Virus record (IMG/VR): IMGVR_UViG_2568526411_000004 | Length of the DNA stretch: 64,000 bases | From: a virus | Lineage: Duplodnaviria; Heunggongvirae; Uroviricota; Caudoviricetes | Reading direction: 5' to 3' (one strand) | Part shown: positions 3,406 through 62,119 of the stretch, piece after piece | Layout: every line of letters starts with the position of its first letter | How positions within the stretch are numbered: position 1 is the first letter of the stretch | Notes under the pieces: model-generated | Databases searched by the model: none | What the model was told of the DNA's origin: nothing | What the model saw: the letters and a program-made list of their open reading frames with translations, nothing else | Translations under genes and position numbers: made by a program

Positions 3406-3423
3406 AGTCAGTAGTGACTGACT
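3406..3423. promoter_or_regulatory. palindromic operator, variant AGTCAGT-AGTG-ACTGACT
   Basis: Inverted 7-bp arms with a 4-bp spacer. This is the same half-site as the CAGTCAGTACTGACTG family. Confidence 0.6.
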
Positions 3424-3429
3424 TTTAAA

Positions 3430-4131
3430 TTAGCGTTTTTTCTCGATAGTGAATGTTTTAAACATTTCGACTATTAACGCGGTCACGTCTTCACTTGTAA
3501 AGCTGACCATACCGTGTTTTTCACCTTTCACAAGGTCGCATATATTGAACATTTGTAACATTGCTTTAGTTGAACATGTTTGAGTCGGTGCGGTATTCAT
3601 GCCCGTACTATGATACTGTCTAACGCGTTTAACGTTCTCTAACCCGTCTTTGTTCTCTATAGCAGCACACAAGCAACGTTCAAGCTCAAAATGACGTAAT
3701 TGTTTAAACTCGATTAAATTACGCAAAATAGAACGTGTGTACGGGTCAATCTTCATGCAGTTGTTTTGTGCAATTGCTTGCATGAGCTTGCGACACTTAA
3801 CAATTGCTTTGCTTGCTAAATAACCGTCTTTACCTTTTATATCTTCACTGTAATTACCGATAATGTCAGCGAATGCTTTTAGCTCGATACCTTTAATTAA
3901 ACATTGCTCTATAGTTGCTAAACCTGCATCAGTAGAGAAAAAGTTAATTTCACTTACTATGTCGCGTGATAACGGTTGATGCACCTTGCGTATCTCAAGG
4001 TTCGCAAGAATAGTCTTTTGTATGTTCTTAGCGCGTGCTTTGAAGTTTGTTTTAACTTCTTTTTTAGCAGTAGCAGCGTTTTCTATAGTTGTTTCAGCAG
4101 CTAAAAGATCAAGGTTTGCTTTAGTATTCAT
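3430..4131 (-). CDS. hypothetical protein
   Basis: The ORF track runs 3430-4209. An internal ATG at 4131 (MNTKANLD) has a GAGAT SD; the first ATG lacks an SD and sits on the palindrome at 4222-4240. Confidence 0.5.
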   Translation of the reverse strand: MNTKANLDLLAAETTIENAATAKKEVKTNFKARAKNIQKTILANLEIRKVHQPLSRDIVSEINFFSTDAGLATIEQCLIKGIELKAFADIIGNYSEDIKGKDGYLASKAIVKCRKLMQAIAQNNCMKIDPYTRSILRNLIEFKQLRHFELERCLCAAIENKDGLENVKRVRQYHSTGMNTAPTQTCSTKAMLQMFNICDLVKGEKHGMVSFTSEDVTALIVEMFKTFTIEKKR

Positions 4132-4221
4132 AGTAAAAATCTCACATCGGTTAAGTTGTTTTAGATACCGTCTAACTTTTTCGAGTAAGTTGTTTCGGTA
4201 TGAGTACATATTAGCACAAAA

Positions 4222-4240
4222 TTGACTTGTTACAAGTCAA
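4222..4240. promoter_or_regulatory. perfect 9-1-9 palindrome TTGACTTGT-T-ACAAGTCAA (operator)
   Basis: Seen directly. A related imperfect copy is at 4772-4790. Confidence 0.55.
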
Positions 4241-4365
4241 TTATTAAAAATAATTTGTTTATTTGTTTAAATTTTGATCAAACAAATAAACATGCTTTAA
4301 AATGCAATAAAACGCCCTTTTTAGAGCGTTTTATTCAAAATGGTATGATCTATCGACTATAGTGC

Positions 4366-4692
4366 TTAAATCACTGTTAAGCGTATGTTATGCACGTTTA
4401 ACGCAATGCTACGGTACTGCATAAAGTTAAGCATGTATCTATTAATAAAATCATTCATAAATGCGCTTTTAGATACCTTTAAAACTTTTTTGTGCTTAGT
4501 GATAGCTGTTAAGTATTCAATGCGCTTGTTTTGTCTCTCTATGCACTTATCAGCGTGAACTATTGCGCGTTGCTGTATTAAATGCATGTATGCGCGTTTA
4601 CCTTCTAATACACTATTAAGCAATTCACTATCATTGTTTAATTCATTAGCAAGTTTAGCTATAGCATTTTTACGCATAATTTGAGTTGTCAT
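4366..4692 (-). CDS. hypothetical protein
   Basis: 108-aa ORF with an AGAAGG SD upstream. Confidence 0.5.
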   Translation of the reverse strand: MTTQIMRKNAIAKLANELNNDSELLNSVLEGKRAYMHLIQQRAIVHADKCIERQNKRIEYLTAITKHKKVLKVSKSAFMNDFINRYMLNFMQYRSIALNVHNIRLTVI

Positions 4693-4771
4693 GATAAAAC
4701 CTTCTATTTAGTTAAGTTGTGTTTGTCGGTTTGTTTCGAGCTAACCGACTGAGTGAATAATTGCACCTAAA

Positions 4772-6735: not shown

Positions 6736-7240
6736 TATTTCATAGCTGGATATGCACCGCATGGCATAGGCAATATTCATCAATCGCCTATTCCGATTAA
6801 CCGCATGTTTGTGCCGAGGACATGCCAGTTTTTGCGTGGAACATTCCGAGGATTCGCCGTGATATTTTGAATTGGCAGCTGTGAGGAATAGCCTCGGCGC
6901 GAAAATTTTTGTTCCACTTGCCTGTGTGTATGTGTGATTTTTTAGGAAATATTTAGTTCAGGAAATTTGTTGGGATTTTTCATTTTCTCTATAAAGATTT
7001 TAAGTCATGACCATTCCGATGTGAAAACGCTAGAAGAAGTGAAAATGCCCCCCCTTCCCCCCCATAGCCTAAAAAGACATTTACATGAGAAGGAAGGGAG
7101 AAGGCATCTACTTCATCCGCGCCACATCGGAATGCGAACATTCCGTAGTTGGTAAACGCCGACCCTAAGCAAAACGCACCCCTATCGAAAAGCAAGATGG
7201 GTCCACTGCCAGCAGTGAAAACTATCTTGGGTGCAATTGT

Positions 7241-7258
7241 AGTCAGTGCTTACTGATT
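7241..7258. promoter_or_regulatory. degenerate palindrome AGTCAGT-GCTT-ACTGATT
   Basis: Same half-site family, one mismatch. Confidence 0.35.
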
Positions 7259-15132: not shown

Positions 15133-15540
15133 TCACTTTGCCAGCTTTAATTCCTCGACCACATGTTTGATTTGCTCGCATGCATATTCGCTTTGACCTT
15201 CAACCGCATGACGTAGGTGAGTGAATGCTTCCATTACTTCAGCCATTCGTTTGCGGTTTTCTCCGCGCAAGTGTCCTTGCAGTGCAAAAAGCTCTTCTGA
15301 AAGACGTTTCAAATCGCTCGAATCGATTAAATTTCCTTTGATTTCGCCTAAGTAGCCTTCAATCGCGTCTTTATCGATTACTTCGTCTTCTAAGTCTTCA
15401 ACCCGCTCAATAAGCTTTTGTTGAGTTGCGAGGCATAAGCATCCGTTAAGACGAAACTCTTCACGCGGAGTCATTGCAGAATAAATAATATGAGAGTCAT
15501 TAAAATCACTAAATAGTGACTGATCTATACATATGTTCAT
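15133..15540 (-). CDS. hypothetical protein
   Basis: 135-aa ORF; a palindromic operator lies upstream at 15598. Confidence 0.5.
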   Translation of the reverse strand: MNICIDQSLFSDFNDSHIIYSAMTPREEFRLNGCLCLATQQKLIERVEDLEDEVIDKDAIEGYLGEIKGNLIDSSDLKRLSEELFALQGHLRGENRKRMAEVMEAFTHLRHAVEGQSEYACEQIKHVVEELKLAK

Positions 15541-15597
15541 GCGCTTATCTCTTAATACGGTGAGATAAATATATAAAATACATCGCGGATTATAAAC

Positions 15598-15611
15598 AGT
15601 CAGTACTGACT
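15598..15611. promoter_or_regulatory. palindromic operator AGTCAGTACTGACT followed, in the minus-strand sense, by TTTATAAT
   Basis: Perfect palindrome. Confidence 0.65.
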
Positions 15612-15751
15612 GATCAATTGGAATTGTGATTATTTATAAAAAAATGCGTTTTAAGCGCTTTTAGATAAAAAGGGTGTAATTTATTAACCGTGACGAACAA
15701 ACGCGATATACGAGAAAATACGCGCATTAAAAAGGGCAATTTAATTGCCCT

Positions 15752-19710: not shown

Positions 19711-19728
19711 TCAGTCAGTGATGACTGA
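19711..19728. promoter_or_regulatory. palindromic operator variant TCAGTCA-GTGA-TGACTGA plus an extra half-site at 19731-19740
   Basis: Half-site family with a 4-bp spacer. Confidence 0.55.
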
Positions 19729-21726: not shown

Positions 21727-21817
21727 CTTTTGTATTCCTAAAATTAATTTTGAACTTCATAAAAGCACCGCTAAACGGTTGTAGCGTTCCCTTGTGTGCT
21801 TTTATGGCGAAAAGTAT

Positions 21818-21831
21818 AGTCAGTACTGACT
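21818..21831. promoter_or_regulatory. palindromic operator AGTCAGTACTGACT followed, in the minus-strand sense, by TATACT
   Basis: Perfect palindrome. Confidence 0.65.
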
Positions 21832-21878
21832 GATTTAATGGCAAATATTTTTCACAAAAACAATTAACCAAACATTAT

Positions 21879-27796: not shown

Positions 27797-27866
27797 TGTT
27801 GGGTAACACTCACTTTTTAAAAAGAGGTGACTAATGCCACCCCTCGTTCTCTGAGCGTTAAAGTAT

Positions 27867-27880
27867 AGTCAGTACTGACT
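27867..27880. promoter_or_regulatory. palindromic operator AGTCAGTACTGACT (followed by TATACT) in the divergent thyX / doc-module region
   Basis: Perfect palindrome. Confidence 0.65.
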
Positions 27881-28026
27881 GATCTTTTGGAGTTTATTTT
27901 CAGCAAAATAGGCTTATTTTTAGCCAGTTGTTTTATGTTTACGAATAAACAGTTAAAATGAACCATGACATTCGATCGACGCAATGAATTGACATTGGAT
28001 CGACGTTTGTTAAAGAGGTTAATTAC

Positions 28027-29873: not shown

Positions 29874-29891
29874 AAGTCAGTAGTGACTGAC
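29874..29891. promoter_or_regulatory. palindromic operator variant AGTCAGT-AGTG-ACTGACT
   Basis: Upstream of nrdB. Confidence 0.55.
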
Positions 29892-33262: not shown

Positions 33263-33312
33263 AAACCTAATAAATAAAATATTAAGGCGACAAATCGCCG
33301 CCTTAATAGTAT

Positions 33313-33326
33313 AGTCAGTACTGACT
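33313..33326. promoter_or_regulatory. palindromic operator AGTCAGTACTGACT followed by TATACT
   Basis: Perfect palindrome. Confidence 0.65.
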
Positions 33327-33344
33327 GATCTAGTGCCTAATTTT

Positions 33345-33938: not shown

Positions 33939-33941
33939 TTT

Positions 33942-37736: not shown

Positions 37737-37766
37737 AAAATTGTGTGATAATTATAGACATAAATA

Positions 37767-37780
37767 AGTCAGTACTGACT
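37767..37780. promoter_or_regulatory. palindromic operator AGTCAGTACTGACT
   Basis: Upstream of sbcD. Confidence 0.65.
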
Positions 37781-37782
37781 GA

Positions 37783-38429: not shown

Positions 38430-38463
38430 TTTAAAAGTAAGTCATTGGTGACTGAATAATAGG

Positions 38464-40526: not shown

Positions 40527-40530
40527 AAGC

Positions 40531-40579: not shown

Positions 40580-40598
40580 TAACTATTACTCCTGAGAA

Positions 40599-42095: not shown

Positions 42096-42105
42096 GTCTT
42101 TAATC

Positions 42106-43170: not shown

Positions 43171-43226
43171 ATTTGATACCCTCTGACGAAGAAGCCACCT
43201 TGCGGCGGCTTCTTGTTGATTAACCG

Positions 43227-44114: not shown

Positions 44115-44233
44115 GTTACAATTTCCTTGAGTAGCTTTGCGTTGATTGCTTTGTTGCTTTGAGACTTGTTAAAACTTGCGAATCGCTTCATTTCGACGTG
44201 CTGCGATTCGCTTGTTTTAACGGTTGATAGTAT

Positions 44234-44247
44234 AGTCAGTACTGACT
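44234..44247. promoter_or_regulatory. palindromic operator AGTCAGTACTGACT followed by TATACT
   Basis: Perfect palindrome. Confidence 0.65.
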
Positions 44248-44264
44248 GATCTTTTCAATAAGAA

Positions 44265-45371: not shown

Positions 45372-45425
45372 AAATACCTCTGCGTTAAAAATAAGGTGTC
45401 ACTATAAAATTATTAAACGAAAAGT

Positions 45426-45445
45426 CAATCAGTAGTGACTGACTT
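45426..45445. promoter_or_regulatory. palindromic operator variant AATCAGT-AGTG-ACTGACT
   Basis: One mismatch. Confidence 0.45.
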
Positions 45446-45455
45446 TTCAGATAAA

Positions 45456-48400: not shown

Positions 48401-48911
48401 CATAGAAATCTTCACCAAAACGCGCTTTGAGTTGACGAGCTATATTTTCATAGTCTGGATGACTACACATACCGAACATATCGCCTGTAGATATGATGAC
48501 GTCTTCTAACTCAAGCAAGTCTTTTAAACACGAGCGTGGATTGTAATAAAAGCGCTCTGGAGTATTTGCTTCGGTCAATAGCCTAAGCAGCCCTTTGAAT
48601 CCAACCTCAGTCTTCGCGTAAACCTTACAGATAAACGACAGATTTTCTTTAGGAATCTCTTGAGATTGTTTTGTAGGTCGACGGTAGGTAGGGTCGTCAT
48701 AAACACGTACACGCACGCCAGCAATTGGTTTTATGCCTTCTTTCTCAGCTTTGTAAGTGAACTGAATTAACGCATGCACGCTCATATCATCCACTAAAGC
48801 CACCGATTGATAACCCAACTCCTTCGCTTTCTCAATGATATGATCAACTTGAAGCATTGACTGACCAATCGAGAAGTCCGACTGTACGGAAAGGGCATGA
48901 TTAATATTCAT
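45456..48911 (-). CDS. dnaE: DNA polymerase III alpha-like (DnaE, PHP N-terminus) with C-terminal UDG-fold domain
   Basis: 1151 aa with a PHP N-terminus and polIII alpha core motifs. The C-terminal ~190 aa resemble a family-4 UDG with a degenerate GExPG motif. Confidence 0.85.
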   Translation of the reverse strand: MNINHALSVQSDFSIGQSMLQVDHIIEKAKELGYQSVALVDDMSVHALIQFTYKAEKEGIKPIAGVRVRVYDDPTYRRPTKQSQEIPKENLSFICKVYAKTEVGFKGLLRLLTEANTPERFYYNPRSCLKDLLELEDVIISTGDMFGMCSHPDYENIARQLKARFGEDFYAELCPINTPLFDKMNKRAIELVGSLGCKPLVTYPFRYLDNADASTMDVMSAIASNTQLDAPFRSRQYVKEFAFVEPSAIIDRTKAAIARGIKFNRTVLDPKSVTAIWTNGIKNCEEVVQKCQYKFEKQPVSLPKLANDEFKKLCELCVEGWKKRFSKPVLGYLPPKNLLDTVYKERLGYELKTLKNMGFESYFLMVEDLVTWAKNNGVIVGPGRGSVNGSLVAYLIGIADVDPIRFGLIFERFINPERLDLPDADLDFASSRRHKVVEYLIDKYGKDYVAGISNYSTLASASALRDVGRLSGLTPLELTASKFVLKDHGQTMSLEESAKAVPELEKFKKAHPEIWKHAVKLAGTMKSFGQHAAGIVVAGEPIVNRAVLERRSEDTVVNWDKRVVEDCGLVKMDLLGLSTLDTLNIARDYIKERHGIYLNYLEIPLDDPKTLQAFANGNTTGVFQFESGGMKQLLKDIAKGGSMTFDDISAATALYRPGPMDSGLLDDYVATRQGMRSVSYDHPNMVEALKDTLGVIIYQEQVMKVSVDFAGFTNAEADKLRKAMGKKNVDEMAKMRQKFIDGAVAKSGVEPGEAGRIFDKIEAFAGYGFNKSHATAYSIISVWCAYVRVHYPAEYFAASLSIVDEDKLKGLVKDARECGIEVLPPDINLSSDRYTILDNHNILAPFNAVKGVSETTARAIVKLREKHRDLKIVKYKRDKTPVWGYDDDAPIKKRFDSLFEFQEAAAQPKTKVNSKVVESLNAIGALASVEPTQLPARHVDRRKAQMDLLPGIIIDTVKADRVADLTEQHLKSRIIMVAQEYKQCDACDLKGKKHPTMRCGNKVKFMVVTDCPNVDEDKQDKLMVGDVSTYLKQAIKDAGLNPSDGYYTTMVKARKSDKFLTNSQINNCSKYLEEEIKLVKPSIIVALGSSVAKKFLPSVKGGISELNATAVYDPTLDATIVCGISPAQLPFDPSKLPDLTLAFEKVAEVLS

Positions 48912-48942: not shown

Positions 48943-49632
48943 TTAATTAGATTCAAATAACTTAGGATTAGCTATGAGTTTTGACTCAGACTCAACGGCG
49001 ATTTCAAATGCCTGAAAAATCTTGAAAGCTAATGATGTGTGACTGCCAGCTGTACCATCTGACCACTCAAGACGGCTCATATACTCGCTCTTCAATTGTG
49101 CGCGTGTTACACCGCCCTTAATTAACATTTCAATAAGGATTGCAAGCCACTTTGGGCCAGTCTTTTCAAGTGGATTAACACCAGCTGTAAGGTCTTTCTT
49201 GATACGGTCGACTAAACCAGTCTTACAAAGCTGTACCGCAAACGACTGTGCTTTCACTGGAAGCTCTGCGATTAGAGTGTTTTGATCGTCTGTTAATTTA
49301 AATTCGACCTTCTCAACCTTAGTTTTGCGCGGCACTTTCATTTCAGGCATAGGCATTTCTTTGCGTTCAGCTGCTTTTTCAGCCATTTCTTGCTTCATAC
49401 GCTCTTCAATGCGCGCTCTCGCTTCTTTCTTGGCCTTTTCGTGTTTTTTCAAATAGTCCTCAACGTTAATTACGCCCTTAATGCGATTTAACGTCTCTGT
49501 TACCGCTGGAATACATTGTTCAAATGCTGGACACTCTTTGCATACCGCACTTTCATGAGAAAAACATGAGACGGCACCAAAACAAGCGGGCGCATTCAAT
49601 GCAGCTTTTTTATGTTCATTTTCGTGTGTCAT
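48943..49632 (-). CDS. hypothetical protein with N-terminal Cys cluster
   Basis: 229 aa. Confidence 0.5.
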   Translation of the reverse strand: MTHENEHKKAALNAPACFGAVSCFSHESAVCKECPAFEQCIPAVTETLNRIKGVINVEDYLKKHEKAKKEARARIEERMKQEMAEKAAERKEMPMPEMKVPRKTKVEKVEFKLTDDQNTLIAELPVKAQSFAVQLCKTGLVDRIKKDLTAGVNPLEKTGPKWLAILIEMLIKGGVTRAQLKSEYMSRLEWSDGTAGSHTSLAFKIFQAFEIAVESESKLIANPKLFESN

Positions 49633-49707: not shown

Positions 49708-50406
49708 TCACATAAGCTCATTGCTAAGCAATTTGCGGATCTCTTTTGCTGCTTCGTCGATTAGCACCAACTCCTTATTGTTTCTTGCTGTGCGTTTAAC
49801 ACAGCGCACAATAAATGCGAGATTGAGAGGCTTTACCATCGCTTTGTAGTGGGAGCTGTGAAATTGAAGCGCAAACTCTCTTTTGGCATATTGAGCCTCA
49901 TACTCGCGCTCAAATTCTTGGTCTGGATGAATAACCTGTTTAAGCAGCGCTACGGCCAAAGGACTTAATTGCTTTTGCACGTAGCTAAGAAGGTTGGATA
50001 GATCCACTTGTTCTAATGAGTTTTCCTGCTCTACGTCCAAAAAGACTTCGGCATCTACCGGCTCGCTTTCGTGATGATTCGCAAGGTCAAAGAAAGAGAC
50101 TGTATTAATCGAACGGTCGCCAACAGCATTTTCGATAATGCGATTAATACGGTTATATGCCGACTTTACGAAGTAGGTCGAGAAACGAAAATTTTGTTTC
50201 TCATCAAAGCCTTTGATCGTTTTCACGAAAACTTCAAAAAGTAGGTTGTGAATGTCTTCGCCGTCTTGAAGTTCGATCGGAACCTGCATCCCTGCGCTTT
50301 GCATATTGGCAACACGTTTTAAAATGTTGCTTGTTACTTTGTTGATTAAGCCAACATGCTCTTTGTAGAGTTCGTTTACTGATTTATTCATGCCGCTATC
50401 TCCCAA
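49708..50406 (-). CDS. sigma-70 family sigma factor
   Basis: Region 2 signature FDEKQNFRFSTYFVKSAYNRINRII (FD..G.RFSTY..WIR). Confidence 0.6.
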   Translation of the reverse strand: MGDSGMNKSVNELYKEHVGLINKVTSNILKRVANMQSAGMQVPIELQDGEDIHNLLFEVFVKTIKGFDEKQNFRFSTYFVKSAYNRINRIIENAVGDRSINTVSFFDLANHHESEPVDAEVFLDVEQENSLEQVDLSNLLSYVQKQLSPLAVALLKQVIHPDQEFEREYEAQYAKREFALQFHSSHYKAMVKPLNLAFIVRCVKRTARNNKELVLIDEAAKEIRKLLSNELM

Positions 50407-50420: not shown

Positions 50421-51620
50421 TTACCCGAACACTCGCTGCGCAATTCCCTTCACAATTTCGTAATCGCGGGAAGATTGTTTGTTGGCATAAGCTAAAGAGA
50501 TACCCGTATTCATAGAGCCGCGCATCACACCTAATTTCGCCGCATAGATTAGAGAGCGCAAAGAAATCGTATCGCTAATTTCTTTATTGCTATAAGCAGC
50601 GCGCACCTTAGTTGCAAACTCAACTAGATTTTTCGCATCTATTGGGTCAATTTGTGTGTGACGTACAATGGCTTTTGCTTCATCTTCTTTAGACATGTAA
50701 TGCTTTTCCATCACCATGCCAAAGCGGTCATAGTTCGCCGTGTTTTGAATGGTTGTTCCTGAATACAAACCTGTTTCATCACCCGTACCATTGGTGTTAC
50801 CCGTCGCACAGAAGCGGAAATTTGGATGAGGTTTGATAATGCGATTTTCAGGGTCAGCTTCTTTAATGTTGAGCGGCTTACCTTCCATAACAGCTTGATA
50901 AACAGACAATACACTTGGCTGCGCAAAGTCATATTCGTCAGCAAGATATAACCAGCCATGCTTCATCGCTAACGCCAACGGCCCAAGTTGGAAAGTCATG
51001 TTTCCATCAACTACAGTCCACATGCCGACGATATGTGCTTCTTCTGTATTGGCGGTGTGCTGAATACGAACGACTGGTCGACCAGTTCTTGCAGCCACCT
51101 GATCAATAAGTTCTGTTTTACCAGTACCTTTGTGGCCCCAAACATAAAAAGGAATATTCAGTTCAAGCGCGATAAGGGTATTTTTCAACACATCAATTTC
51201 AAAAACGTATGTGTTGTTAATTTCAGGCACCATGTCTGGTGATGATGAGTTCTCAATACAAGATACTGGGATTGGATCACCCTGTGCGTTTTTACCTTCT
51301 GGGCCAGAGATTTCAAAAATTTCATGTAAATTACGCGCAACTAAGGTGTCTTTAGCGACGAACGAACCCGGCTTTTGAATTACCGAACTTGGTTGAGCTG
51401 GCTGAGCTGCCGCTTGTTCTTGAGCCTTTTTCTTCTGCTCTTCCGCTTTCATTCTGATGCGCTCGATTAAAGCTGGCGATTGGGTCGGTGCATTAGGATA
51501 AGAAGATTTATAATTCTCAAAAGTCACCTTTGGGTGATCAGTATTAAGGTGATGAGGTATAGAATGCACTTGAGCTTTACAAATTTCGCATGCGATTGTT
51601 TCATTTTGATTTACAGTCAT
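50421..51620 (-). CDS. MoxR/CobS-like AAA+ ATPase
   Basis: Walker A GHKGTGKT and Walker B LYLADEYDF. Confidence 0.7.
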   Translation of the reverse strand: MTVNQNETIACEICKAQVHSIPHHLNTDHPKVTFENYKSSYPNAPTQSPALIERIRMKAEEQKKKAQEQAAAQPAQPSSVIQKPGSFVAKDTLVARNLHEIFEISGPEGKNAQGDPIPVSCIENSSSPDMVPEINNTYVFEIDVLKNTLIALELNIPFYVWGHKGTGKTELIDQVAARTGRPVVRIQHTANTEEAHIVGMWTVVDGNMTFQLGPLALAMKHGWLYLADEYDFAQPSVLSVYQAVMEGKPLNIKEADPENRIIKPHPNFRFCATGNTNGTGDETGLYSGTTIQNTANYDRFGMVMEKHYMSKEDEAKAIVRHTQIDPIDAKNLVEFATKVRAAYSNKEISDTISLRSLIYAAKLGVMRGSMNTGISLAYANKQSSRDYEIVKGIAQRVFG

Positions 51621-51705
51621 TTTTTAAATCTCACAAAGATAGATTTTGACAAAACTTTGTCTTTTGAATATGCGTGAATGATACTAATATCTTCTAGGAA
51701 AAGAT

Positions 51706-51719
51706 AGTCAGTACTGACT
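51706..51719. promoter_or_regulatory. palindromic operator AGTCAGTACTGACT
   Basis: Perfect palindrome. Confidence 0.65.
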
Positions 51720-51759
51720 GATTATTTAAATAACCCCAACTGACTATCTTGCTCACGAA

Positions 51760-53817
51760 TTACTTGAGAAGTAATGAGCGAAGCTCGCCAATAACCGTGT
51801 TAGGTAAGTCGGCAACAGATCTCAAAACGACATTTTTTGGATAGAACTCTTTTACGCTTTGCGTATTGATTCCAATTCCAATAACTTCAAATCCTGAGCG
51901 AGAAATTTCCTGAACGGTTGTTTTGAGGTGTTTGTTTAGCGTTGGGGTCGGGCCGCTACCATTTGGATTACCATCACTTAACACCATAATGATTTTCCGT
52001 GCTTCTTTTTGAGCGCTTAGCCGCTGTGCCGCAATTTGAAGACACTCCCCATCAACATTCGTGTTTAAGAACCTAACATGAGGCAACCATGCAAAACGAT
52101 GGCGGTTTTCGAGCGTTAAGCGCTCATTAAACCCTTTAATGACTGGCATATATAAACCTTCCGTTCTTGTGTATCGAATCGTTTTGCCATTATGCGTAAA
52201 GCTTTCTTTTGCGTGTGGATCACCGTTTTTAGTTGTGAATCCAATAACTTCATGATTAATGTTGAGACGGTCAAGAACAGATGACATTGCATATGACGCT
52301 TGAGAGGCTGTGTTAATGCGTTCGCCCTTCATTGAACCTGAACAGTCAATTAAGAGGGTTACAGCGACATCTTTGGAACGATTCTCTTGTTTGCGACGGA
52401 ATATACGGTCGTCTCTAACAGCTAAACGAGAAAGTGACGCCTGGTTAATTTTTCCTTGCCGTAAACCGTTCTCCCATGTTCTTGCTGATCGAGCAACCAT
52501 AAGACGTTCCAAATCTTTTTGAATTGTTCCCGTAATTTTATTGGTTGCTCTATCTAAATCATCCATAAAGGACGATTTGTAATTTCTGCCAATTTTTAAT
52601 GTTTCGATAACGTCATATCTGTTTGTATAAACGAGATATGGCGCAGTGCAAGCAAAGTCTTTTGCTTCATTGCTTAACTGAACGGCAAACGAGGCGTCAA
52701 AATCATTCGCTGACTCCTTGTCGATCTCTTGCAAAATCGCCTTAGCGTCTAAATTAAGCTTTCTTAATTCCTTTTTCTTTTCTGACGTCTGATTCTCAGA
52801 GTCGCTAGACTCGTTGCCTTCATTGCTGTCGCCCTTACCATTCGATTTGTCAGACTTATTTTGGTGGCGCTCACTTTTACCATCTGATTCGTTCCCACCA
52901 TCCTCATCTTCGGATTGACCGCCTTTACCTCCATCACCTTGTTCGTCTTGCTCATCAGCATCGCCTGAAGACTCACCGGCACCATCTTCTTCAGAATCGC
53001 CATCATCTCCCTCACCAGCGCCTTGCTGACCGTCTGCATCTGAACCTTCATCTTCGTCAGAATTTCCGCCACCTGAGCCGCCTGGTTGCTCATCTTCATC
53101 TTCGTTAGATTGACCATTTCCTTGTTGATCACATTCTTCTTCCTGTTGTTGATCTTGCGGGGGTTGTTTCTCGTCTTCGGGACTTTTTAGAGCTTTGTAA
53201 ATTTCTTTAGCTAAGCGAACGGCATCCTGAGACGACTGCATTGATTGAAGTTGTGGCGCAAGGTGTTTGATGGCAGCATGAATATTTGGCAACAAATGAA
53301 TCTTGTCGCGCATATAAATTTCAAAAGTTGATTGACCCGAAAGGCTGCGGAGATATGGAGTGGCCAAGATACCCATAATCTTTGTTTCATCAACATCGGG
53401 ATGCGCCATAACTTCTTTAAATTTCGGAGTAATCATCTCTTCTAAAAAGAAGTGTGCGGTGTGATCTAAGTTAGAACCAGAACCTCTAAATTTTTCAGCC
53501 ATGCATTTTTCGATGCGGGCGTCTTCTAAAATATTTGCGAGACTTTTTAAAAGGTAATCGCCAACGCTATTTAGGGCTTTAAAATCAGAGAAAAGAACAT
53601 GTGCAACCTCATGATCTAAGAATCCCTGTATTGCTCTTATAAGTTCTTCTGATGCATTGTCCGAAAGGTACGGTAAATTGATAGAAATCGGATTTCCATT
53701 AATGTCAGACTTGACGTATGCTTCCATACCTATTTGAGTTACTTCAATTTTTTTCTCAATGAGAGCATTTGTGATTGCAACGATAGCGTTGCGTAAATTA
53801 GCAATGCGATTGTTCAT
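51760..53817 (-). CDS. CobT-like vWA-domain protein with long acidic/Gly-rich low-complexity insert
   Basis: vWA MIDAS LLIDCSGSM; central D/E/G/S-rich region. Confidence 0.65.
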   Translation of the reverse strand: MNNRIANLRNAIVAITNALIEKKIEVTQIGMEAYVKSDINGNPISINLPYLSDNASEELIRAIQGFLDHEVAHVLFSDFKALNSVGDYLLKSLANILEDARIEKCMAEKFRGSGSNLDHTAHFFLEEMITPKFKEVMAHPDVDETKIMGILATPYLRSLSGQSTFEIYMRDKIHLLPNIHAAIKHLAPQLQSMQSSQDAVRLAKEIYKALKSPEDEKQPPQDQQQEEECDQQGNGQSNEDEDEQPGGSGGGNSDEDEGSDADGQQGAGEGDDGDSEEDGAGESSGDADEQDEQGDGGKGGQSEDEDGGNESDGKSERHQNKSDKSNGKGDSNEGNESSDSENQTSEKKKELRKLNLDAKAILQEIDKESANDFDASFAVQLSNEAKDFACTAPYLVYTNRYDVIETLKIGRNYKSSFMDDLDRATNKITGTIQKDLERLMVARSARTWENGLRQGKINQASLSRLAVRDDRIFRRKQENRSKDVAVTLLIDCSGSMKGERINTASQASYAMSSVLDRLNINHEVIGFTTKNGDPHAKESFTHNGKTIRYTRTEGLYMPVIKGFNERLTLENRHRFAWLPHVRFLNTNVDGECLQIAAQRLSAQKEARKIIMVLSDGNPNGSGPTPTLNKHLKTTVQEISRSGFEVIGIGINTQSVKEFYPKNVVLRSVADLPNTVIGELRSLLLK

Positions 53818-53834: not shown

Positions 53835-53852
53835 TCAGTCAGTGATGACTGA
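53835..53852. promoter_or_regulatory. palindromic operator variant TCAGTCA-GTGA-TGACTGA
   Basis: Upstream of the cobT-like gene. Confidence 0.55.
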
Positions 53853-53976: not shown

Positions 53977-54177
53977 TTATGGATTTATCACTCTAACTAT
54001 ACTTTTTGGAGCGCAGGTATTAATTACCTCAATGTCCCCTAAATTCAGATGCTTATAGCGCTTTATAGTGTAAAACCCGTCATTTAGCAGTGTTTCTACA
54101 CCTTCTGTTTTTTCTAAAATTTCAGCAAGTTCATCCAAGTCTACAGTTTGGAATTGATCATTCAATGTCACAGTCAT
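53977..54177 (-). CDS. small hypothetical protein
   Basis: 66 aa. Confidence 0.3.
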   Translation of the reverse strand: MTVTLNDQFQTVDLDELAEILEKTEGVETLLNDGFYTIKRYKHLNLGDIEVINTCAPKSIVRVINP

Positions 54178-54404
54178 TTAAATCACCATTCTGATTTATC
54201 AAGATTTTGAAGAGGCTATTAATATACGTCTCATCATTTCAGCCCCGTATATTATAGTTTGGGTTCGCTCAAAAGCTTTTAATAAAATCAGTCAGAAGTG
54301 ACTGTTTGAACATTTAAAAGCCAGTTGTTGATCGTATTCATAAATTCTCCTTATGTGATAATTAACAAAACTTAATACAGTGTGAAGTTTTGTAAGTTGA
54401 TGGG

Positions 54405-54468
54405 GTTTATATAAACTGTTAATTTTTAGACAATTTATATAAACGGTTAATTTTAAATAGTTAATTTT
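54405..54468. repeat. iteron-like direct repeats (TTTATATAAAC x2, GTTAATTTT x3)
   Basis: Seen directly in the ~600-bp noncoding region upstream of the HTH / recombinase / par module. Confidence 0.5.
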
Positions 54469-54778
54469 GGACTTTCTACATTGCCATATTGTAATTTTTT
54501 CCTTTTTTGACTAAAAAAAATAACAAAAAATCTGGAAAAAATTAGTCCATTCAATCGAATACACTTTGCATTCGCTGCATCTAGTTTGTAAACTTGGGCG
54601 TATATAATTCACGAGTGACTGATTTTTTCTATAAAATTAGTCCCCCCACCACCTATAATAGTGCTGTAATTCAAAATCAGTCAGTTCTGAGTATATATTT
54701 GGTCTCATGTTCTGGATTATTACAAAGTGAATTACGACTCATCATAGGAAAAATTTAACTCTGTATTTGGAGAGGCAA

Positions 54779-55243
54779 ATGGCTAAAAATCGCAACAATA
54801 TGAACGTGGCAGAATATCTCGCAGACTTAATCGAGAATTCTCCTAAAAGCCAGCGTGAGATTGCTGAGGAAATAGGTTTTAAACGCCCTAACGTTTTATC
54901 GATGATTAAGAGTGGTGAAACTCGCTTACCGATCGATAAAATCAAGCCTACCGCTTTAGCATTAGGCGAAAACCCTACTCGCCTTCTTATACGCGTTCTA
55001 AAAGAATATGCACCGGACTTAATTGATGTTGTCGAGTCAATCACTGGGCAAACTCCATTAACCCCTAACGAAATTAATATCGTCAAAACTATTCGCAGTG
55101 TAACTATGGAAGACCCTTCTTTTTATGGAGACACTCGTGACAAGTTTGTTGACGTAATTAAGGAAATGGAAAGCGAGACAATTAAGCACCGCGCTGAGCT
55201 TCAAAAAAATAAGGAGGAATCGGCATTCAGATCTCAGAAATGA
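54779..55243 (+). CDS. XRE-family HTH transcriptional regulator
   Basis: SQREIAEEIGFKRPNVLSMIKSGE HTH; ATG with a GGAGAGG SD. Confidence 0.7.
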   Translation: MAKNRNNMNVAEYLADLIENSPKSQREIAEEIGFKRPNVLSMIKSGETRLPIDKIKPTALALGENPTRLLIRVLKEYAPDLIDVVESITGQTPLTPNEINIVKTIRSVTMEDPSFYGDTRDKFVDVIKEMESETIKHRAELQKNKEESAFRSQK

Positions 55244-59411: not shown

Positions 59412-59414
59412 CTT

Positions 59415-59804
59415 TTAATCGCGGTCTAGGCATTTCCAGCCTCTAAAGTTTAAATTTGAATAAGGCGCACAGTCGCCCCAAGCGTAATATTCATATTCAG
59501 GGCCAGTAGAGCGCTTTTTCTTTGCCGCCGAGCTGCTTACATATGATGTGCGAGCGGGTGTCGTTGGCTTCGTTACTACTGGCTTGCTAACGGTCGGCTT
59601 ATAGCTTGTTCTCACTGGCGTTGTAGATATTGAGCGAATTGCCGAAGGGCGTGAAACCGAAACAGATCGCGCAGAAGATACCGACGCACGGGCAGAAACT
59701 GCCGCGTGTGCCGATGGTGCAAAAGTAGCTATGCTTGCCGCTGTTAAGATTGCAGCCGCAACAACTAACAACGCTGATTTATGCTTACCTTGTATTTTTC
59801 GCAT
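59415..59804 (-). CDS. secreted Ser/Thr/Pro-rich protein with signal peptide
   Basis: The N-terminal hydrophobic segment ends AHA; the rest is low-complexity. Confidence 0.4.
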   Translation of the reverse strand: MRKIQGKHKSALLVVAAAILTAASIATFAPSAHAAVSARASVSSARSVSVSRPSAIRSISTTPVRTSYKPTVSKPVVTKPTTPARTSYVSSSAAKKKRSTGPEYEYYAWGDCAPYSNLNFRGWKCLDRD

Positions 59805-59809
59805 TGTAT

Positions 59810-61213
59810 TTAACCTACCTGTACGTTTTTAATCGCGTTATCAAATTGCTCATAAATGCGCGCTAGATCGTCTGCAACCGTTTTGTCTAAGCGATAACAG
59901 TCTTCAACCATGCGTGGCAAAAACAACGAATAATTAGGACTGCTCGCTGAAGGTTTTAGAATCGTGTTCGAACGCACAGTAATGATTCGACCAATCCAGT
60001 CTTCCGGGTTTGCGTCCAATTCGTCACGTAATTTTTCATTTTTAACGGCGACGTCGACAATTAATTGACCGCACGCTGACTTGCAACTTAATGCCCCTGC
60101 CCTTCCTTCATTTTTCGATCCAGCCTTGCCTTCATTGATACCCACGACTTCTAACTCACAGTCAGCCTCAAGCTTTAATTTGATTTGTTCTTTACTTGTG
60201 CCGTCTTTCCAAATTGCTGTTGAGTTTTTAATAACCGTGCCTTCTTTTCCTAATAGCAGCTTCTCTTCACAGTGCTTATATGCTTCGCTTAGGCTATTTA
60301 CAATACGGGTCTCGATGATGCGAATGTATTTACCGCCCTTAACCATGTTAAACAGTGCGCGAAAACGATTAGCGTATGGCGCCTTAAATACCCCTTTTGG
60401 CACTACCGCCTCAAAAGGGATGAAATCCCACACTTTATAAATTGGACGCTCATTCTCGGCAAATTTACCGCCCTTCAAGACGCTATTAAGAATGCCATTG
60501 CCAATCTCTCGTGGAAGCTCTACACCATCACGCTCGACAAGTAGCTCGCCGTGATACTGGAAGTTAGGCTGAAGTAAAAGCTCCGCTTCTTCTACGATGT
60601 CTTTAAACTCATCCATAGGGAATTGAGAGCCTTGACGAGAGACAAATGAAAGTAGTTCATTTGCACGTTTATTTCCGTTCGCGTACATGCCGTCTGCTTT
60701 CTCTTGTGAGAAAACGCCTTTGCCCCATGTCCACGTATCAAATTTTGCATCTTTAGGCAAAGAACAACGTTGATATGGAAATTCAGGAATTAAGCCTTTG
60801 CATGCTTTATTGATTGTTGATTCACTAAAGCCTGCGCGTAAGTCTTTACGCAAAATTCGAATAAATAGATCGCCTGACTTTTCGCTCAATTGAGCCAGCT
60901 GACAACGAACCGCTTCGCGAGCTGCATTGCCTGTAAGTTCACGTTTTTCTAGTGCGTATATGATTTCTAAAGTATCCGCTTCGTCAAACCATAGCTCACC
61001 AGTGCCCTTTGCATCTTTATCCGGGAGAATACCAAATATGCGGAATGGGTTATAAGCAAGTGAACACACTTCTTTAAATAAAGGATTGCTTATGTAGTGG
61101 CTCACCATTTCCAGTTTTTTATTTTTAGAACTCTCTTGAGCTATTTCATTGAGCGCCTGACACACAAGGTCGCTATTGAATGTTTGTGTTAAGACTGGCT
61201 CCAAAGTTGCCAT
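59810..61213 (-). CDS. ATP-dependent DNA ligase
   Basis: Nucleotidyltransferase motif I EKADGM (KxDG); 467 aa. Confidence 0.7.
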   Translation of the reverse strand: MATLEPVLTQTFNSDLVCQALNEIAQESSKNKKLEMVSHYISNPLFKEVCSLAYNPFRIFGILPDKDAKGTGELWFDEADTLEIIYALEKRELTGNAAREAVRCQLAQLSEKSGDLFIRILRKDLRAGFSESTINKACKGLIPEFPYQRCSLPKDAKFDTWTWGKGVFSQEKADGMYANGNKRANELLSFVSRQGSQFPMDEFKDIVEEAELLLQPNFQYHGELLVERDGVELPREIGNGILNSVLKGGKFAENERPIYKVWDFIPFEAVVPKGVFKAPYANRFRALFNMVKGGKYIRIIETRIVNSLSEAYKHCEEKLLLGKEGTVIKNSTAIWKDGTSKEQIKLKLEADCELEVVGINEGKAGSKNEGRAGALSCKSACGQLIVDVAVKNEKLRDELDANPEDWIGRIITVRSNTILKPSASSPNYSLFLPRMVEDCYRLDKTVADDLARIYEQFDNAIKNVQVG

Positions 61214-61241
61214 TTGTTACTCCAATTTTTACATTGGCCCG

Positions 61242-61499
61242 TTATAAACGGGCCAGATAATCACGCTCAATGCGCTCTATATTTGAAACTCTTTGCTGAG
61301 CTATCAGCTCAACGCCACTTGCTAAATCAGCAACCATTGCTCTGATTTGCTCATCGTCTAAATGCTTCGCCGCAGCAAAGTTACCCAACTCATCACCCAT
61401 CAATTTTTTAAGGGCGTTAATGATGTCTTTTCGTGTTGCGCCTTTAGTTCGCTTAACCTCAGCAACTTGGCAACTTAATATTTGATATAAATCAGTCAT
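61242..61499 (-). CDS. hypothetical protein
   Basis: 85 aa. Confidence 0.4.
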   Translation of the reverse strand: MTDLYQILSCQVAEVKRTKGATRKDIINALKKLMGDELGNFAAAKHLDDEQIRAMVADLASGVELIAQQRVSNIERIERDYLARL

Positions 61500-61519
61500 A
61501 AATTACCTACCACTAATAC

Positions 61520-62119
61520 TCAAACACTTAATTGTTGTCGCTTTGCTTTGGCAATATCTATTAATGACATACCTTTTTTAACAGTCAGTACTGACTGATC
61601 TTTATGTGATGATAAAGGTTTCTCAGTGGAATTTAAAGCGGATTGTTGATTTTCCGACTTCATTTCCTTAGCAATGCGACTATTTATGGCGTCTGCAATC
61701 GAACCAACTTCGAATGTATTTACTGGCTCTGACGGCGTAAGAGTTGGCTTTTTAATGTCGTTTTTAATTACGATATCGGAAATTTTAATACCGTATTGAG
61801 CTGCGTTGTGACGCACGTTCTGGCGCATCTTAACTCGGTTGATGTAGTAGATCGCTGCACCATTCCGCTTCTCTTCTTGGCGCATAGTCAACGCCTGACA
61901 AACTTTATTGCATATTGCAGCTGAGCAACCAGACTCAACAGATGGAAGCAATTTACCCGCCTCTATCTCGCGTATGCGATTTAAGCACGAAGCATAAGCT
62001 GGGCGATAACCAGAAGCGCCACAATATTCAAGGTAAAAAGCATTGTCCCCTTGAGCAGAAGCTTCAACAGGGTAAATTGCTGTATCGACGAATGGCACTA
62101 TTTCTATACGATTATTCAT
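61520..62119 (-). CDS. hypothetical Cys-containing protein
   Basis: 199 aa. A palindromic operator lies within its 3' end. Confidence 0.45.
   Translation of the reverse strand: MNNRIEIVPFVDTAIYPVEASAQGDNAFYLEYCGASGYRPAYASCLNRIREIEAGKLLPSVESGCSAAICNKVCQALTMRQEEKRNGAAIYYINRVKMRQNVRHNAAQYGIKISDIVIKNDIKKPTLTPSEPVNTFEVGSIADAINSRIAKEMKSENQQSALNSTEKPLSSHKDQSVLTVKKGMSLIDIAKAKRQQLSV
61583..61596. promoter_or_regulatory. palindromic operator AGTCAGTACTGACT lying inside the 3' end of the 61520-62119 ORF
   Basis: Perfect palindrome ~90 bp upstream of the 61499 start. Confidence 0.55.

What the first reader, a model, noticed from the sequence alone, without database searches (positions are those of the whole stretch)
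3406..61596. Genome-wide palindromic operator AGTCAGT(N0/N4)ACTGACT in about 15 promoter regions
The perfect 16-bp palindrome CAGTCAGTACTGACTG recurs at least nine times: 15598, 21818, 27867, 33313, 37767, 44234, 51706 and 61583, plus a near-copy. The same half-sites with a 4-bp spacer (AGTG, GTGA or GCTT) occur at 3406, 7241, 19711, 29874, 45426 and 53835. Almost every site is intergenic and directly upstream of a leftward operon. In the transcribed orientation each is followed by a -10-like TATACT or TATAAT. The operator therefore covers the spacer and -35 region. That geometry suits a dimeric repressor (0 and 4 bp spacings) or a phage-specific promoter recognised by the encoded sigma factor at 49708-50406. 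The sites span both the early cluster and the replication block.
Basis: seen in the sequence. Interest (0 to 1): 0.8.

Follow-up and report, generated by a model that had tools for sequence, protein, structure and literature searches.

The report
Genome-wide repressor operator of phage-plasmid
A 14-16 bp palindrome sits between genes about 30 times in an Acinetobacter baumannii phage-plasmid and is most likely the binding site of one plasmid-encoded Cro/CI-type repressor that keeps the phage genes silent; related plasmids, including Salmonella Typhi pHCM2 and Yersinia pestis pMT1, carry their own versions.

Summary
The motif is real. The window has 17 sites (0-2 in shuffles) and the whole 112-kb replicon about 32; 29 of those 32 are non-coding (p 6e-23). 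The window is an "AB-group" A. baumannii phage-plasmid. Against an 80-88% relative the arms are conserved in 195/196 cells, and substitutions fall at the centre. In a relative with variable half-sites the halves vary independently (20/38 sites mismatched), which rejects an RNA hairpin. Only a subset of sites abut a -10 (13/29), so not all are promoters. Related lineages (pABTJ2 type, RHEph10, pHCM2, pMT1, pKpn) have their own AGTnAn dyads at orthologous junctions. The best candidate reader is the XRE-family regulator at 54779-55243: it is autoregulated, syntenic across the supergroup, and one recognition-helix residue tracks one operator base. Phage SSU5 lacks both this gene and the sigma-like gene but keeps the dyads, which argues against an activator or sigma promoter. 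Binding is untested. Most likely this is a dimeric-repressor analogue of the P1 C1 / mycobacteriophage L5 dispersed-operator systems, and it appears undescribed.

The parts
3405..3420 (-). Dyad site CAGTCACTACTGACTG (transcribed orientation). It lies 9 nt after the stop of ORF 3430-4209 and about 34 nt before ORF 3173-3370.
   Evidence: arms conserved in the 80-88% relative
7240..7255 (-). Dyad site CAGTAAGCACTGACTA, flanked by TTGAAA-N17-TACAAT. It lies in a stretch without an annotated gene.
15597..15612 (-). Perfect 16-bp dyad CAGTCAGTACTGACTG, 56 nt upstream of ORF 15133-15540. A TATAAT lies 3 nt downstream.
19712..19727 (-). Dyad site CAGTCATCACTGACTG (centre variant), 35 nt upstream of ORF 19401-19676.
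   Evidence: the ortholog in the relative has a CT centre
21817..21832 (-). Dyad plus abutting -10-like TATACT, 90 nt upstream of ORF 21010-21726.
27866..27881 (-). Dyad plus TATACT, upstream of the thymidylate synthase gene (26936-27796). A terminator-like hairpin lies 22 nt downstream.
29874..29889 (-). Dyad between the RNR alpha (29907-32297) and RNR beta (28835-29827) genes. TATTAT follows, and a hairpin starts 8 nt after the dyad. The pABTJ2 lineage has a dyad at the orthologous junction.
33312..33327 (-). Dyad plus TATACT, followed after 3 nt by a strong terminator hairpin (-16 kcal/mol).
37766..37781 (-). Dyad 1 nt after the upstream stop codon and 44 nt before the metallophosphoesterase gene (36627-37736).
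38439..38454 (-). Degenerate dyad CAGTCACCAATGACTT, 9 nt after the upstream stop codon.
44233..44248 (-). Dyad filling the 18-bp spacer of TTGAAA-N18-TATACT, upstream of the gp32-like SSB gene (43227-44114).
45426..45441 (-). Dyad CAGTCACTACTGATTG, 14 nt after the DnaE stop codon and 54 nt before ORF 44265-45371.
51705..51720 (-). Dyad between the CobT-like (51760-53817) and CobS/MoxR-like (50421-51620) genes. The same junction carries a dyad in pHCM2, pKpn, pMT1 and an E. coli plasmid.
53836..53851 (-). Dyad CAGTCATCACTGACTG only 18 nt upstream of the CobT-like start codon, too close for a promoter placed after it.
   Evidence: the ortholog has a GT centre
54289..54304 (-). Dyad CAGTCACTTCTGACTG in the divergent control region, 111 nt upstream of the 66-aa ORF (53977-54177).
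54606..54621 (-). Weak half-dyad CAGTCACTCGTGAATT in the control region. It is below the core-PWM threshold, so its membership is uncertain.
54678..54693 (+). Plus-oriented dyad CAGTCAGTTCTGAGTA filling the spacer of TTCAAA-N18-TATATT, 85 nt upstream of the XRE regulator gene. This is the putative autoregulatory operator.
61582..61597 (-). Perfect 16-bp dyad inside the 3' end of ORF 61520-62119 and 82 nt upstream of ORF 61242-61499.
54779..55243 (+). XRE (Cro/CI-type) helix-turn-helix regulator, 154 aa (WP_001107553.1). It is the proposed dyad reader and master repressor. It lies on the minority strand with the resolvase and parA genes.
53977..54177 (-). 66-aa ORF transcribed divergently from the regulator. 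A small ORF occupies the same position in every lineage of the supergroup. Its function is unknown.

Best explanation
The repeat is a duplex-DNA operator made of two 6-bp half-sites (AGTCAG / CTGACT) around a 2-bp centre that the protein does not read. A dimer of one plasmid-encoded Cro/CI-type (XRE) regulator binds it; the most probable reader is the 154-aa protein encoded at 54779-55243.

About 30 copies sit in the short gaps between genes of a ~110-kb A. baumannii phage-plasmid. At roughly 40% of sites the dyad occupies positions -26 to -11 of a sigma-70-type promoter (the spacer, touching the -10), so a bound dimer would exclude RNA polymerase. The remaining sites have no recognisable promoter and would act as roadblocks or extra silencing points.

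In the plasmid state the regulator would hold the replication, nucleotide-metabolism and virion genes off, and would also limit its own expression through the dyad in its own promoter. The maintenance genes repB, parA and the resolvase gene carry no dyad and would stay on.

Shown here: the site anatomy, distribution, conservation, independence of the half-sites, overlap with promoters, and co-variation with the regulator. Inferred: that this protein binds the sites, and that binding represses.
For: - Enrichment and placement.
- One register with a free centre, and arms under strong purifying selection: 195/196 cells conserved against ~85% background, p 5e-13.
- Half-sites vary independently and often cannot pair, so duplex DNA is what is read. 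In RHEph10, pair 6-13 is mismatched in 20/38 sites and all 15 sites with a left A have a right G.
- The dyad lies in the spacer of sigma-70-like promoters in the window (TTGAAA-N18-TATACT at 44233; TTCAAA-N18-TATATT at 54678) and in GC-rich relatives (TTGCGA-N17-TAGAAT; TTGACG-N17-TACCAT).
- Five sampled lineages have their own AGTnAn dyad at orthologous junctions.
- The XRE gene is syntenic across the supergroup (CobT - small ORF <> XRE - integrase) and always has a dyad in its own promoter. In pHCM2, pMT1, pKpn and an E. coli plasmid that dyad lies immediately after the -10, over the start site, which is a purely repressive position.
- The residue three positions after the turn glycine is Arg/Lys where half-site base 4 is C (window, L204, L149) and Asn/Gln where it is A (pKpn, pHCM2/pMT1, pABTJ2, RHEph10). 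The window protein is as similar to pKpn (43%) as to L204 (40%).
- Profile match to PDB 8BNY 'Immunity repressor protein', E 1.2e-4, followed by dimeric controller proteins.
- SSU5 is 95% identical to pHCM2 but lacks the XRE-integrase block and keeps about 14 dyads, so the protein is dispensable for lytic growth.
Against: - No binding or expression data exist for any member.
- The co-variation rests on seven lineages that are not fully independent.
- Most Acinetobacter sites lack a -35, and more than half lack a convincing -10. In the pABTJ2 lineage the -10-like flank is simply part of a longer AT-rich palindrome (21 sites in gene orientation, 28 in the mirror).
- The element is asymmetric in a way a plain symmetric dimer does not explain. 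Positions 6-7 vary while their mirror positions 8-9 are invariant, and the flanks follow gene direction (11/12 independent sites, p 0.003).
- The structure model is mediocre (pLDDT 64) and the fold matches are not statistically significant.
- The pABTJ2 paper reported that these plasmids lack a phage repressor and are not inducible.
Confidence: 0.6

Rival explanations
1. The dyads are phage-specific promoters that need a dimeric activator bound in place of the -35 (as at the Lpa-dependent late promoters of P1), or are recognised through the sigma-like protein encoded at 49708-50406.
For: Most Acinetobacter sites have no -35. Seven sites share a perfect dyad plus TATACT at a fixed offset. The flanks follow gene direction. 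The sigma-like gene is conserved in the AB lineages and RHEph10 and is annotated as a sigma factor there. Generic sigma-70 promoter matches are depleted in the window, 16 found against 35 expected.
Against: A sigma factor reads two different elements 16-18 bp apart, not a 14-bp dyad. Where hexamers are recognisable they are host-like, with the dyad in the spacer. At the XRE promoters of the enterobacterial plasmids the dyad lies over the start site. SSU5, pHCM2 and pKpn have AGTAAG dyads but no sigma-like gene between CobS and DnaE. SSU5 also lacks the XRE gene yet is an infectious phage. Several sites lie 3-18 nt from the start codon. The sigma-like ORF reaches only sub-threshold sigma-70 region 2 scores.
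Confidence: 0.13
2. The dyads are loading or binding sites of the conserved ParB-family protein, which would act like KorB of plasmid RK2 (a partition protein that also represses transcription from dispersed palindromes).
For: The sites are 14-16 bp palindromes. Two ParB N-terminal-domain proteins belong to the core genome of all four compared replicons. A dyad lies in the helicase/ParB divergent region in every lineage.
Against: Only the CTPase-type N-terminal domain is detected, with no ParB helix-turn-helix. The segments most likely to read DNA (AKEIGLxDNxRYGxDD, and the C-terminal strand QTHQIMRFKV) are identical in the window and pABTJ2 lineages although their dyads differ at 3 of 7 half-site positions. 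Placement inside promoter spacers is unlike parS sites or KorB operators.
Confidence: 0.1
3. The element works as an RNA or single-strand hairpin: an intercistronic stabiliser, processing site, terminator, or target of an RNA-binding protein.
For: It is palindromic, lies just after stop codons, shares the orientation of transcription, and has a 4-nt loop-like variable centre. A terminator hairpin follows some sites.
Against: The half-sites do not covary and frequently cannot pair. The hairpins are weak (-3.4 to -9.3 kcal/mol), lack U-tracts and have modest z-scores. No Rfam family matches. The sequence of the arms is conserved, not just their ability to pair.
Confidence: 0.04

Closest known systems
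Mycobacteriophage L5 / cluster A repressor gp71 with operators and 'stoperators'
   Same: There are more than 20 repressor sites spread over the genome, in promoters and in short intergenic gaps, with an orientation that follows transcription. The site sequence and the repressor co-evolve into different immunity groups (PMC9283540).
   Different: L5 sites are asymmetric 13-mers bound by a monomer with two DNA-binding domains. Here the site is a symmetric dyad and the candidate is a classical one-HTH XRE protein that should bind as a dimer. No block to elongation has been shown. The hosts are proteobacteria and the element is a plasmid.
Phage-plasmid P1 C1 repressor network
   Same: The element is a plasmid prophage silenced through about 22 operators dispersed over the genome (PMC8546580).
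   Different: C1 operators are asymmetric 17-mers, and C1 is a different protein controlled by Coi, Lxc and Bof. P1 late genes use a separate activator (Lpa), whereas here the same dyad is also found throughout the late genes.
Lambdoid / 434-type Cro and CI operators
   Same: The operator is a 14-bp two-half-site dyad with an uncontacted centre, read by an XRE helix-turn-helix dimer. The gene pair is divergent, with several operators between the genes. The first residue of the recognition helix sets base specificity (434 Gln28; background knowledge).
   Different: Lambdoid operators are confined to one or two control regions. Here about 30 copies are distributed at nearly every transcription-unit junction. 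The protein has no LexA-like cleavage domain.
KorB-OB system of IncP plasmid RK2
   Same: A palindrome is repeated about 12 times around a plasmid and gives global repression of backbone genes (background knowledge).
   Different: KorB is a ParB-family CTPase whose operators lie upstream of or far from promoters. Here the sites lie inside promoter spacers, and the ParB-like protein does not co-vary with the dyad.
Lpa-dependent late promoters of P1
   Same: A -10 hexamer is combined with an inverted repeat in place of the -35 (background knowledge; the source paper could not be retrieved here).
   Different: That repeat is centred near -22 and is an activator site at about 11 late promoters. 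Here the centre is at -18.5, many sites have no -10, and a member without the candidate protein still grows.

Membership tests
Cro/CI (XRE) dimeric repressor-operator system | Operator made of two inverted half-sites with a centre the protein does not read | tested here: met
   One ungapped register fits all sites. The arms are conserved in 195/196 cells and the centre changed in 7/28.
Cro/CI (XRE) dimeric repressor-operator system | Duplex DNA is read, so half-sites vary independently | tested here: met
   There is no left/right covariation, and 20/38 sites are mismatched at pair 6-13 in RHEph10.
Cro/CI (XRE) dimeric repressor-operator system | Operator overlaps the core promoter | tested here: inconclusive
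   This is clear at a subset of sites (13/29 in the window-type replicon, 6/38 in RHEph10, and all XRE promoters examined) but not at the majority.
Cro/CI (XRE) dimeric repressor-operator system | An XRE-type HTH protein is encoded in cis, is autoregulated, and has a recognition helix that co-varies with the operator | tested here: met
   Pfam HTH_19/HTH_3 hits are sub-threshold. The profile hit to 8BNY is E 1.2e-4. A dyad is present in the gene's own promoter in 5 lineages. The R/K versus N/Q residue tracks base 4.
Cro/CI (XRE) dimeric repressor-operator system | Protein binds the operator and represses | not testable with these tools
   This needs EMSA or footprinting, ChIP-seq and reporter assays.
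L5-type stoperator system | More than 20 dispersed sites in short intergenic gaps, oriented with transcription | tested here: met
   There are about 32 sites, 29 of them non-coding. The flank orientation follows the gene strand in 11/12 independent sites.
L5-type stoperator system | Asymmetric 13-bp site bound by a monomer with two DNA-binding domains | tested here: not met
   The site is a symmetric dyad. The candidate has one HTH, and its model has no second DNA-binding domain at usable confidence.
L5-type stoperator system | Blocks transcription elongation | not testable with these tools
   Sites 3-18 nt from start codons are compatible with this, but nothing was measured.
P1 C1 operator network | Asymmetric 17-bp operator ATTGCTCTAATAAATTT and a C1-family repressor | tested here: not met
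   The sequence and symmetry differ. No protein here was annotated or detected as C1-like in the Pfam or PHROG scans.
Promoter of a phage-encoded sigma factor | Bipartite, non-symmetric -35 and -10 elements at 16-18 bp spacing that differ from the host consensus | tested here: not met
   The conserved block is a 14-16 bp dyad, and the flanking hexamers, where present, are host-like. Relatives without the sigma-like gene keep the dyads.
Intrinsic terminator / structured intercistronic RNA | Stable hairpin kept by compensatory changes, plus a U-tract for terminators | tested here: not met
ParB-parS / KorB-OB | ParB-family protein with a helix-turn-helix whose specificity residues match the palindrome | tested here: not met
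   Only the ParB_N domain is detected, and the candidate DNA-reading segments are invariant across lineages with different dyads.

The most novel reading that the evidence does not exclude
A whole supergroup of ~100-120 kb siphovirus-type phage-plasmids uses one small XRE repressor and a 'one operator per gene junction' layout to silence the entire phage genome. The supergroup includes the Acinetobacter AB group, Rhizobium RHEph10-like phages, and enterobacterial pHCM2, pKpn, pSLy3 and Y. pestis pMT1. Immunity specificity would be switched largely by a single recognition-helix residue (Arg/Lys or Asn/Gln) paired with one operator base. Operator, promoter and the preceding unit's terminator would be physically overlapped, so that each short transcription unit is both insulated and individually repressible.
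Probability: 0.3. Interest if true: 0.7.

Novelty: new variant of a known kind. Interest (0 to 1): 0.55.

Why it matters
AB-group, pHCM2-, pKpn- and pMT1-type phage-plasmids are common in clinical A. baumannii, Klebsiella, Salmonella Typhi and Y. pestis, and they carry resistance or virulence cargo. The window's own family has IS26 insertions, and a sister record carries msrE/mphE. No phage has ever been recovered for the AB group, and the literature searched here describes no regulator for either the AB or the SSU5 groups.

Identifying the likely master repressor and its complete operator set turns several questions into simple experiments:
- what keeps these elements quiescent;
- whether they can be induced;
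- which of them are mutually immune.

It also offers a compact operator-repressor pair with natural specificity variants.

Tried and rejected
- **Near-identical phage in GenBank:** none found. The replicon was identified through the plasmid collection instead.
- **Exact-motif scans of public collections:** one multi-copy IMG/VR contig was found, and everything else was single chance hits. A scan with the 14-mer AGTCACAAGTGACT was too unspecific, although two useful loci were rescued with a local HMM.
- **Literature:** none of the five lineage-specific dyad strings occurs in any held paper. The P1 genome paper and the SSU5 cocktail paper are not held.
- **N4-spacing model:** rejected.
- **RNA hairpin or terminator model:** rejected.
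- **Right half-site acting as a -35 with a -10 seventeen bp downstream:** examined by eye on the aligned sites; no conserved hexamer was found there.
- **'Terminator follows the dyad' as a general rule:** true for only 11 sites in three genomes, against 3 on the mirror side.
- **XRE homolog in SSU5:** absent by tblastn, by HMM, and with the pHCM2 protein as query. SSU5_121 is a FljA-type protein, not a homolog.
- **Comparing only the two Acinetobacter lineages:** this could not separate the XRE and sigma-like candidates, since both are 28-30% identical.
- **Structure prediction of the regulator:** only moderate confidence, and the fold matches are not significant.

Full report
**What the window is.** The window matches at 100% identity a set of 105-114 kb non-mobilizable Acinetobacter baumannii plasmids. 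These plasmids encode a siphovirus-type virion module, a DnaE polymerase, gp32-like SSB, RNR, ligase, CobS/CobT-like proteins, RepB, ParA and a small recombinase. This is the 'AB group' of phage-plasmids of Pfeifer et al. 2021, which has two subgroups and no known phage (PMC7969092). No GenBank phage is closely similar.

- CAGTCAGTACTGACTG with up to 2 mismatches occurs 14 times against 0.01 expected.
- A core PWM finds 17 sites in the window against 0-2 in shuffles, and about 32 in the full replicon, including the late genes outside the window.
- Of the 32 sites, 29 are non-coding although at most 12.9% of the replicon is non-coding (p 6e-23).

The details need correcting. The perfect 16-mer occurs twice; the 14-mer AGTCAGTACTGACT occurs eight times.

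**One element, not two spacings.** In the transcribed orientation every site fits one ungapped alignment, aaaRAT-CAGTCA-sy-ACTGACT-r. The motif is internally periodic, (CAGT)2(ACTG)2, so N0 sites also match the N4 pattern with 1-2 mismatches. Only half of the CAGTCACTACTGACT sites have the upstream AGT that the N4 reading needs. In an 80-88% identical relative (IMG/VR contig 3300012075_000001), the orthologs of the 'N4' sites 19712 and 53836 carry CT and GT centres in the same register.

**Selection acts on two arms.** Across 14 orthologous site pairs, positions 0-5 and 8-15 are conserved in 195 of 196 cells, against about 85% identity in the surrounding sequence (p 5e-13). Positions 6-7 changed in 7 of 28 cells. 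This is the footprint of a protein reading two half-sites around a centre it does not contact.

**DNA, not RNA.** Rhizobium phage RHEph10 is a syntenic relative with 38 dyads (GTC-ARTMAATATTGAYT-GAC), and its half-sites come in variants. The left and right variants combine freely. Pair 6-13 is mismatched in 20/38 sites, and all 15 sites with a left A have a right G. Pair 2-17 is mismatched in 25/38. No pair shows compensatory covariation. As RNA, the window's dyads would fold only weakly (-3.4 to -9.3 kcal/mol, no U-tract), and no Rfam family matches.

**Relation to promoters.** The dyads lie 1-17 nt after the upstream stop codon (exactly 9 nt in five cases) and 3-118 nt before the next start codon. 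The asymmetric flanks follow gene direction, including at the two plus-strand units (helicase and the XRE regulator). Among sites not used to build the PWM, 11 of 12 agree (p 0.003).

Seven sites combine a perfect dyad with TATACT at a fixed offset, which puts the dyad at -26 to -11. Examples are TTGAAA-N18-TATACT at 44233 and TTCAAA-N18-TATATT at 54678. In GC-rich relatives, where AT-rich hexamers stand out, the same layout is plain: TTGCGA-N17-TAGAAT (L106) and TTGACG-N17-TACCAT (L113 and RHEph10), with the dyad filling the spacer.

This holds for only a subset, however: 13/29 sites in the window-type replicon (mirror control 6) and 6/38 in RHEph10 (mirror control 3). Several sites lie 3, 14 or 18 nt from a start codon, and in RHEph10 many lie 0-6 nt from a Shine-Dalgarno sequence. 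A promoter cannot fit there.

**A family of operators.** The diverged sister subgroup (true pABTJ2 size, e.g. NZ_CP094284.1) has about 30 copies of ATTAT-TAGTAAGC|GCTTACTA-ATAAT at orthologous junctions: terminase/portal, before and after the capsid gene, tape measure/tail, and RNR alpha/beta.

| Lineage | Dyad |
|---|---|
| Window type | AGTCAG·TA·CTGACT |
| L106, L204, L149 | AGTCAC·nn·GTGACT |
| pABTJ2 type | AGTAAG·CG·CTTACT |
| RHEph10 group | ARTMAA·TA·TTGAYT |
| SSU5, pHCM2, pMT1, pKpn, E. coli plasmid | rGTAAG·nn·CTTACy |

Sources. All share the skeleton AGTnAn. The CobT/CobS junction carries a dyad from Acinetobacter to Yersinia.

**Which protein reads it?**
- *Sigma-like ORF (49708-50406).* It scores only sub-threshold for sigma-70 region 2. 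It is absent from SSU5, pHCM2 and pKpn, which nevertheless have dyads.
- *Cro-like ORF (18001).* Its recognition helix is almost identical in the two Acinetobacter subgroups despite their different dyads.
- *HTH at 10011.* It has no homolog in the sister subgroup.
- *Core ParB-like protein.* Only a ParB N-terminal domain is detected, and the segments most likely to read DNA are invariant across lineages.
- *XRE regulator at 54779-55243.* It is the candidate that fits. It sits on the minority strand with the resolvase and parA genes, divergent from a small ORF and the CobT operon, and three dyads lie in the 600-bp gap. This synteny holds in pABTJ2-type plasmids, RHEph10, pHCM2, pKpn, an E. coli plasmid and pMT1. 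Its own promoter always contains a dyad. In the enterobacterial plasmids that promoter is TTTACA-N17-TAATAT with the dyad directly after the -10, over the start site, which is a repressive position. A profile of the family matches PDB 8BNY 'Immunity repressor protein' (E 1.2e-4) and the dimeric controller proteins C.BclI and C.AhdI. The moderate AlphaFold model (pLDDT 64; 70-81 in the HTH domain) resembles Stl, HigA, DdrO and ClgR, but without statistical significance.

**Co-variation.** The HTH segment is invariant within each dyad group and differs between groups. The residue three positions after the turn glycine is Arg or Lys in the three lineages whose half-site has C at position 4 (window KRPN, L204 EKPN, L149 PKPN). 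It is Asn or Gln in the lineages with A there (pKpn KNPN, pHCM2/pMT1/E. coli KNAN, pABTJ2 NQ-N, RHEph10 TQSN). From background knowledge, this column corresponds to Gln28 of 434 repressor, the first base-contacting residue of the recognition helix, and Arg/Lys-guanine and Asn/Gln-adenine are the usual pairings. The window protein is about as similar to pKpn's (43%) as to L204's (40%), so the pattern is not simply overall relatedness. With seven lineages it remains suggestive rather than conclusive.

**Repressor or activator?** SSU5 is about 95% identical in DNA to pHCM2 up to the start of CobT. The small ORF, XRE and integrase block is then missing from SSU5, and no homolog is found anywhere in SSU5. 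SSU5 is an isolated infectious phage and keeps about 14 dyads. The protein is therefore not needed to express dyad-linked genes, which fits a repressor and argues against an essential activator. In the window-type replicon the maintenance genes repB, parA and the resolvase gene have no dyad, while replication, nucleotide-metabolism and virion units do. That distribution is expected of a lytic regulon but does not by itself give the sign of regulation.

**Comparison with known systems.** In function this most resembles the dispersed-operator networks of P1 (22 C1 operators; PMC8546580) and of mycobacteriophage L5 (more than 20 operators and 'stoperators' in short intergenic gaps, oriented with transcription; PMC9283540). 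It is not a member of either family, because those sites are asymmetric and are bound by unrelated or monomeric proteins. In its chemistry it is a Cro/CI-type dyad operator, but multiplied about 30-fold over the genome. Searches for the motif strings, and for regulation of AB- or SSU5-type phage-plasmids, found no description.

**What remains unexplained.** Three features are unexplained:
- the asymmetry within the dyad (positions 6-7 free, positions 8-9 fixed);
- the orientation bias of half-site variants in RHEph10;
- the role of sites that have no promoter.

Nothing about binding or expression has been measured.

Noticed in passing
window 27866-27935, 29874-29930, 33312-33375; also NZ_CP031445.1 26975 (after the capsid gene), L101 38480, RHEph10 472: At a minority of sites (11 in three genomes, against 3 on the mirror side) a strong terminator hairpin starts 0-8 nt (up to 22 nt) after the dyad. 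A start predicted 7 nt after the abutting -10 would fall at the base of, or inside, the hairpin's 5' arm. Upstream transcripts would then terminate while locally initiated ones could not form the hairpin. The arrangement after the capsid gene (dyad - TACAAT - hairpin) is the same in Acinetobacter and Rhizobium elements.
   Followed up: partly
window 1-820 and 22302-23121: There are two IS26 copies. The first is inserted about 14 bp from the plus-oriented dyad that precedes the helicase gene in other family members (NZ_CP031445.1 37327-37342). In this plasmid the helicase gene (808-2565) is therefore cut off from its dyad-bearing control region. A sister record carries IS26-msrE-mphE-IS26 at the second position.
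   Followed up: partly
window 54406-54426 and 54434-54454 (partial third copy 54461-54468): Two 21-bp direct repeats, TTTATATAAAC(T/G)GTTAATTTT, lie in the divergent control region between the 66-aa ORF and the XRE regulator gene. They are unrelated to the dyad and could be the site of a second regulator.
   Followed up: no
window 49708-50406 (-) and 48943-49632 (-): A diverged sigma-70-like ORF (region 2 only at sub-threshold scores) and a conserved 229-aa partner lie between the CobS-like gene and DnaE. Both are present in the AB subgroups and RHEph10 but absent from SSU5, pHCM2 and pKpn. No candidate promoter motif for this protein was found.
   Followed up: partly
SSU5 (L122/L123), about 21 sites, e.g. 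30448, 42728, 82467, 88369, 94524: SSU5 has a second repeated module, GATAAT...AAG-AAAACAAnTTGTTTA, placed 10-20 nt upstream of the ribosome-binding sites of many early or accessory genes. This is a promoter plus a different 15-bp dyad downstream of the -10, which implies a second regulator.
   Followed up: partly
SSU5 41776-42761 versus pHCM2 locus L268 19466-22600: SSU5 lacks the small ORF, XRE regulator and integrase block that is present in its 95%-identical plasmid relative pHCM2, and has a tRNA-Asn region there instead. This may explain why SSU5 was isolated as a plaque-forming phage.
   Followed up: partly
window 45456-48911 (-): The DnaE-type polymerase carries a C-terminal uracil-DNA-glycosylase-superfamily domain (Pfam UDG, residues 1002-1133). 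In the pABTJ2 lineage the two parts are separate genes with an intervening NUMOD4 (homing-endonuclease-type) gene.
   Followed up: no
NZ_CP031445.1 36674-37354 (outside the window; L001): The core ParB-like protein combines a ParB N-terminal (CTPase-type) domain with a C-terminus that reads like a ribbon-helix-helix (…THQIMRFKVP.E.VD…NAGDAL…). A dyad always lies just upstream of its start codon.
   Followed up: partly
window 26001-46000: Generic sigma-70 promoter matches are depleted (16 found against 35.3 +/- 7.2 in shuffles), and the two best matches both coincide with dyad sites.
   Followed up: no
Y. pestis pMT1 locus L271 7505-10261: In pMT1 the XRE regulator and integrase module lies directly next to the caf1 (F1 capsule) operon.
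   Followed up: no
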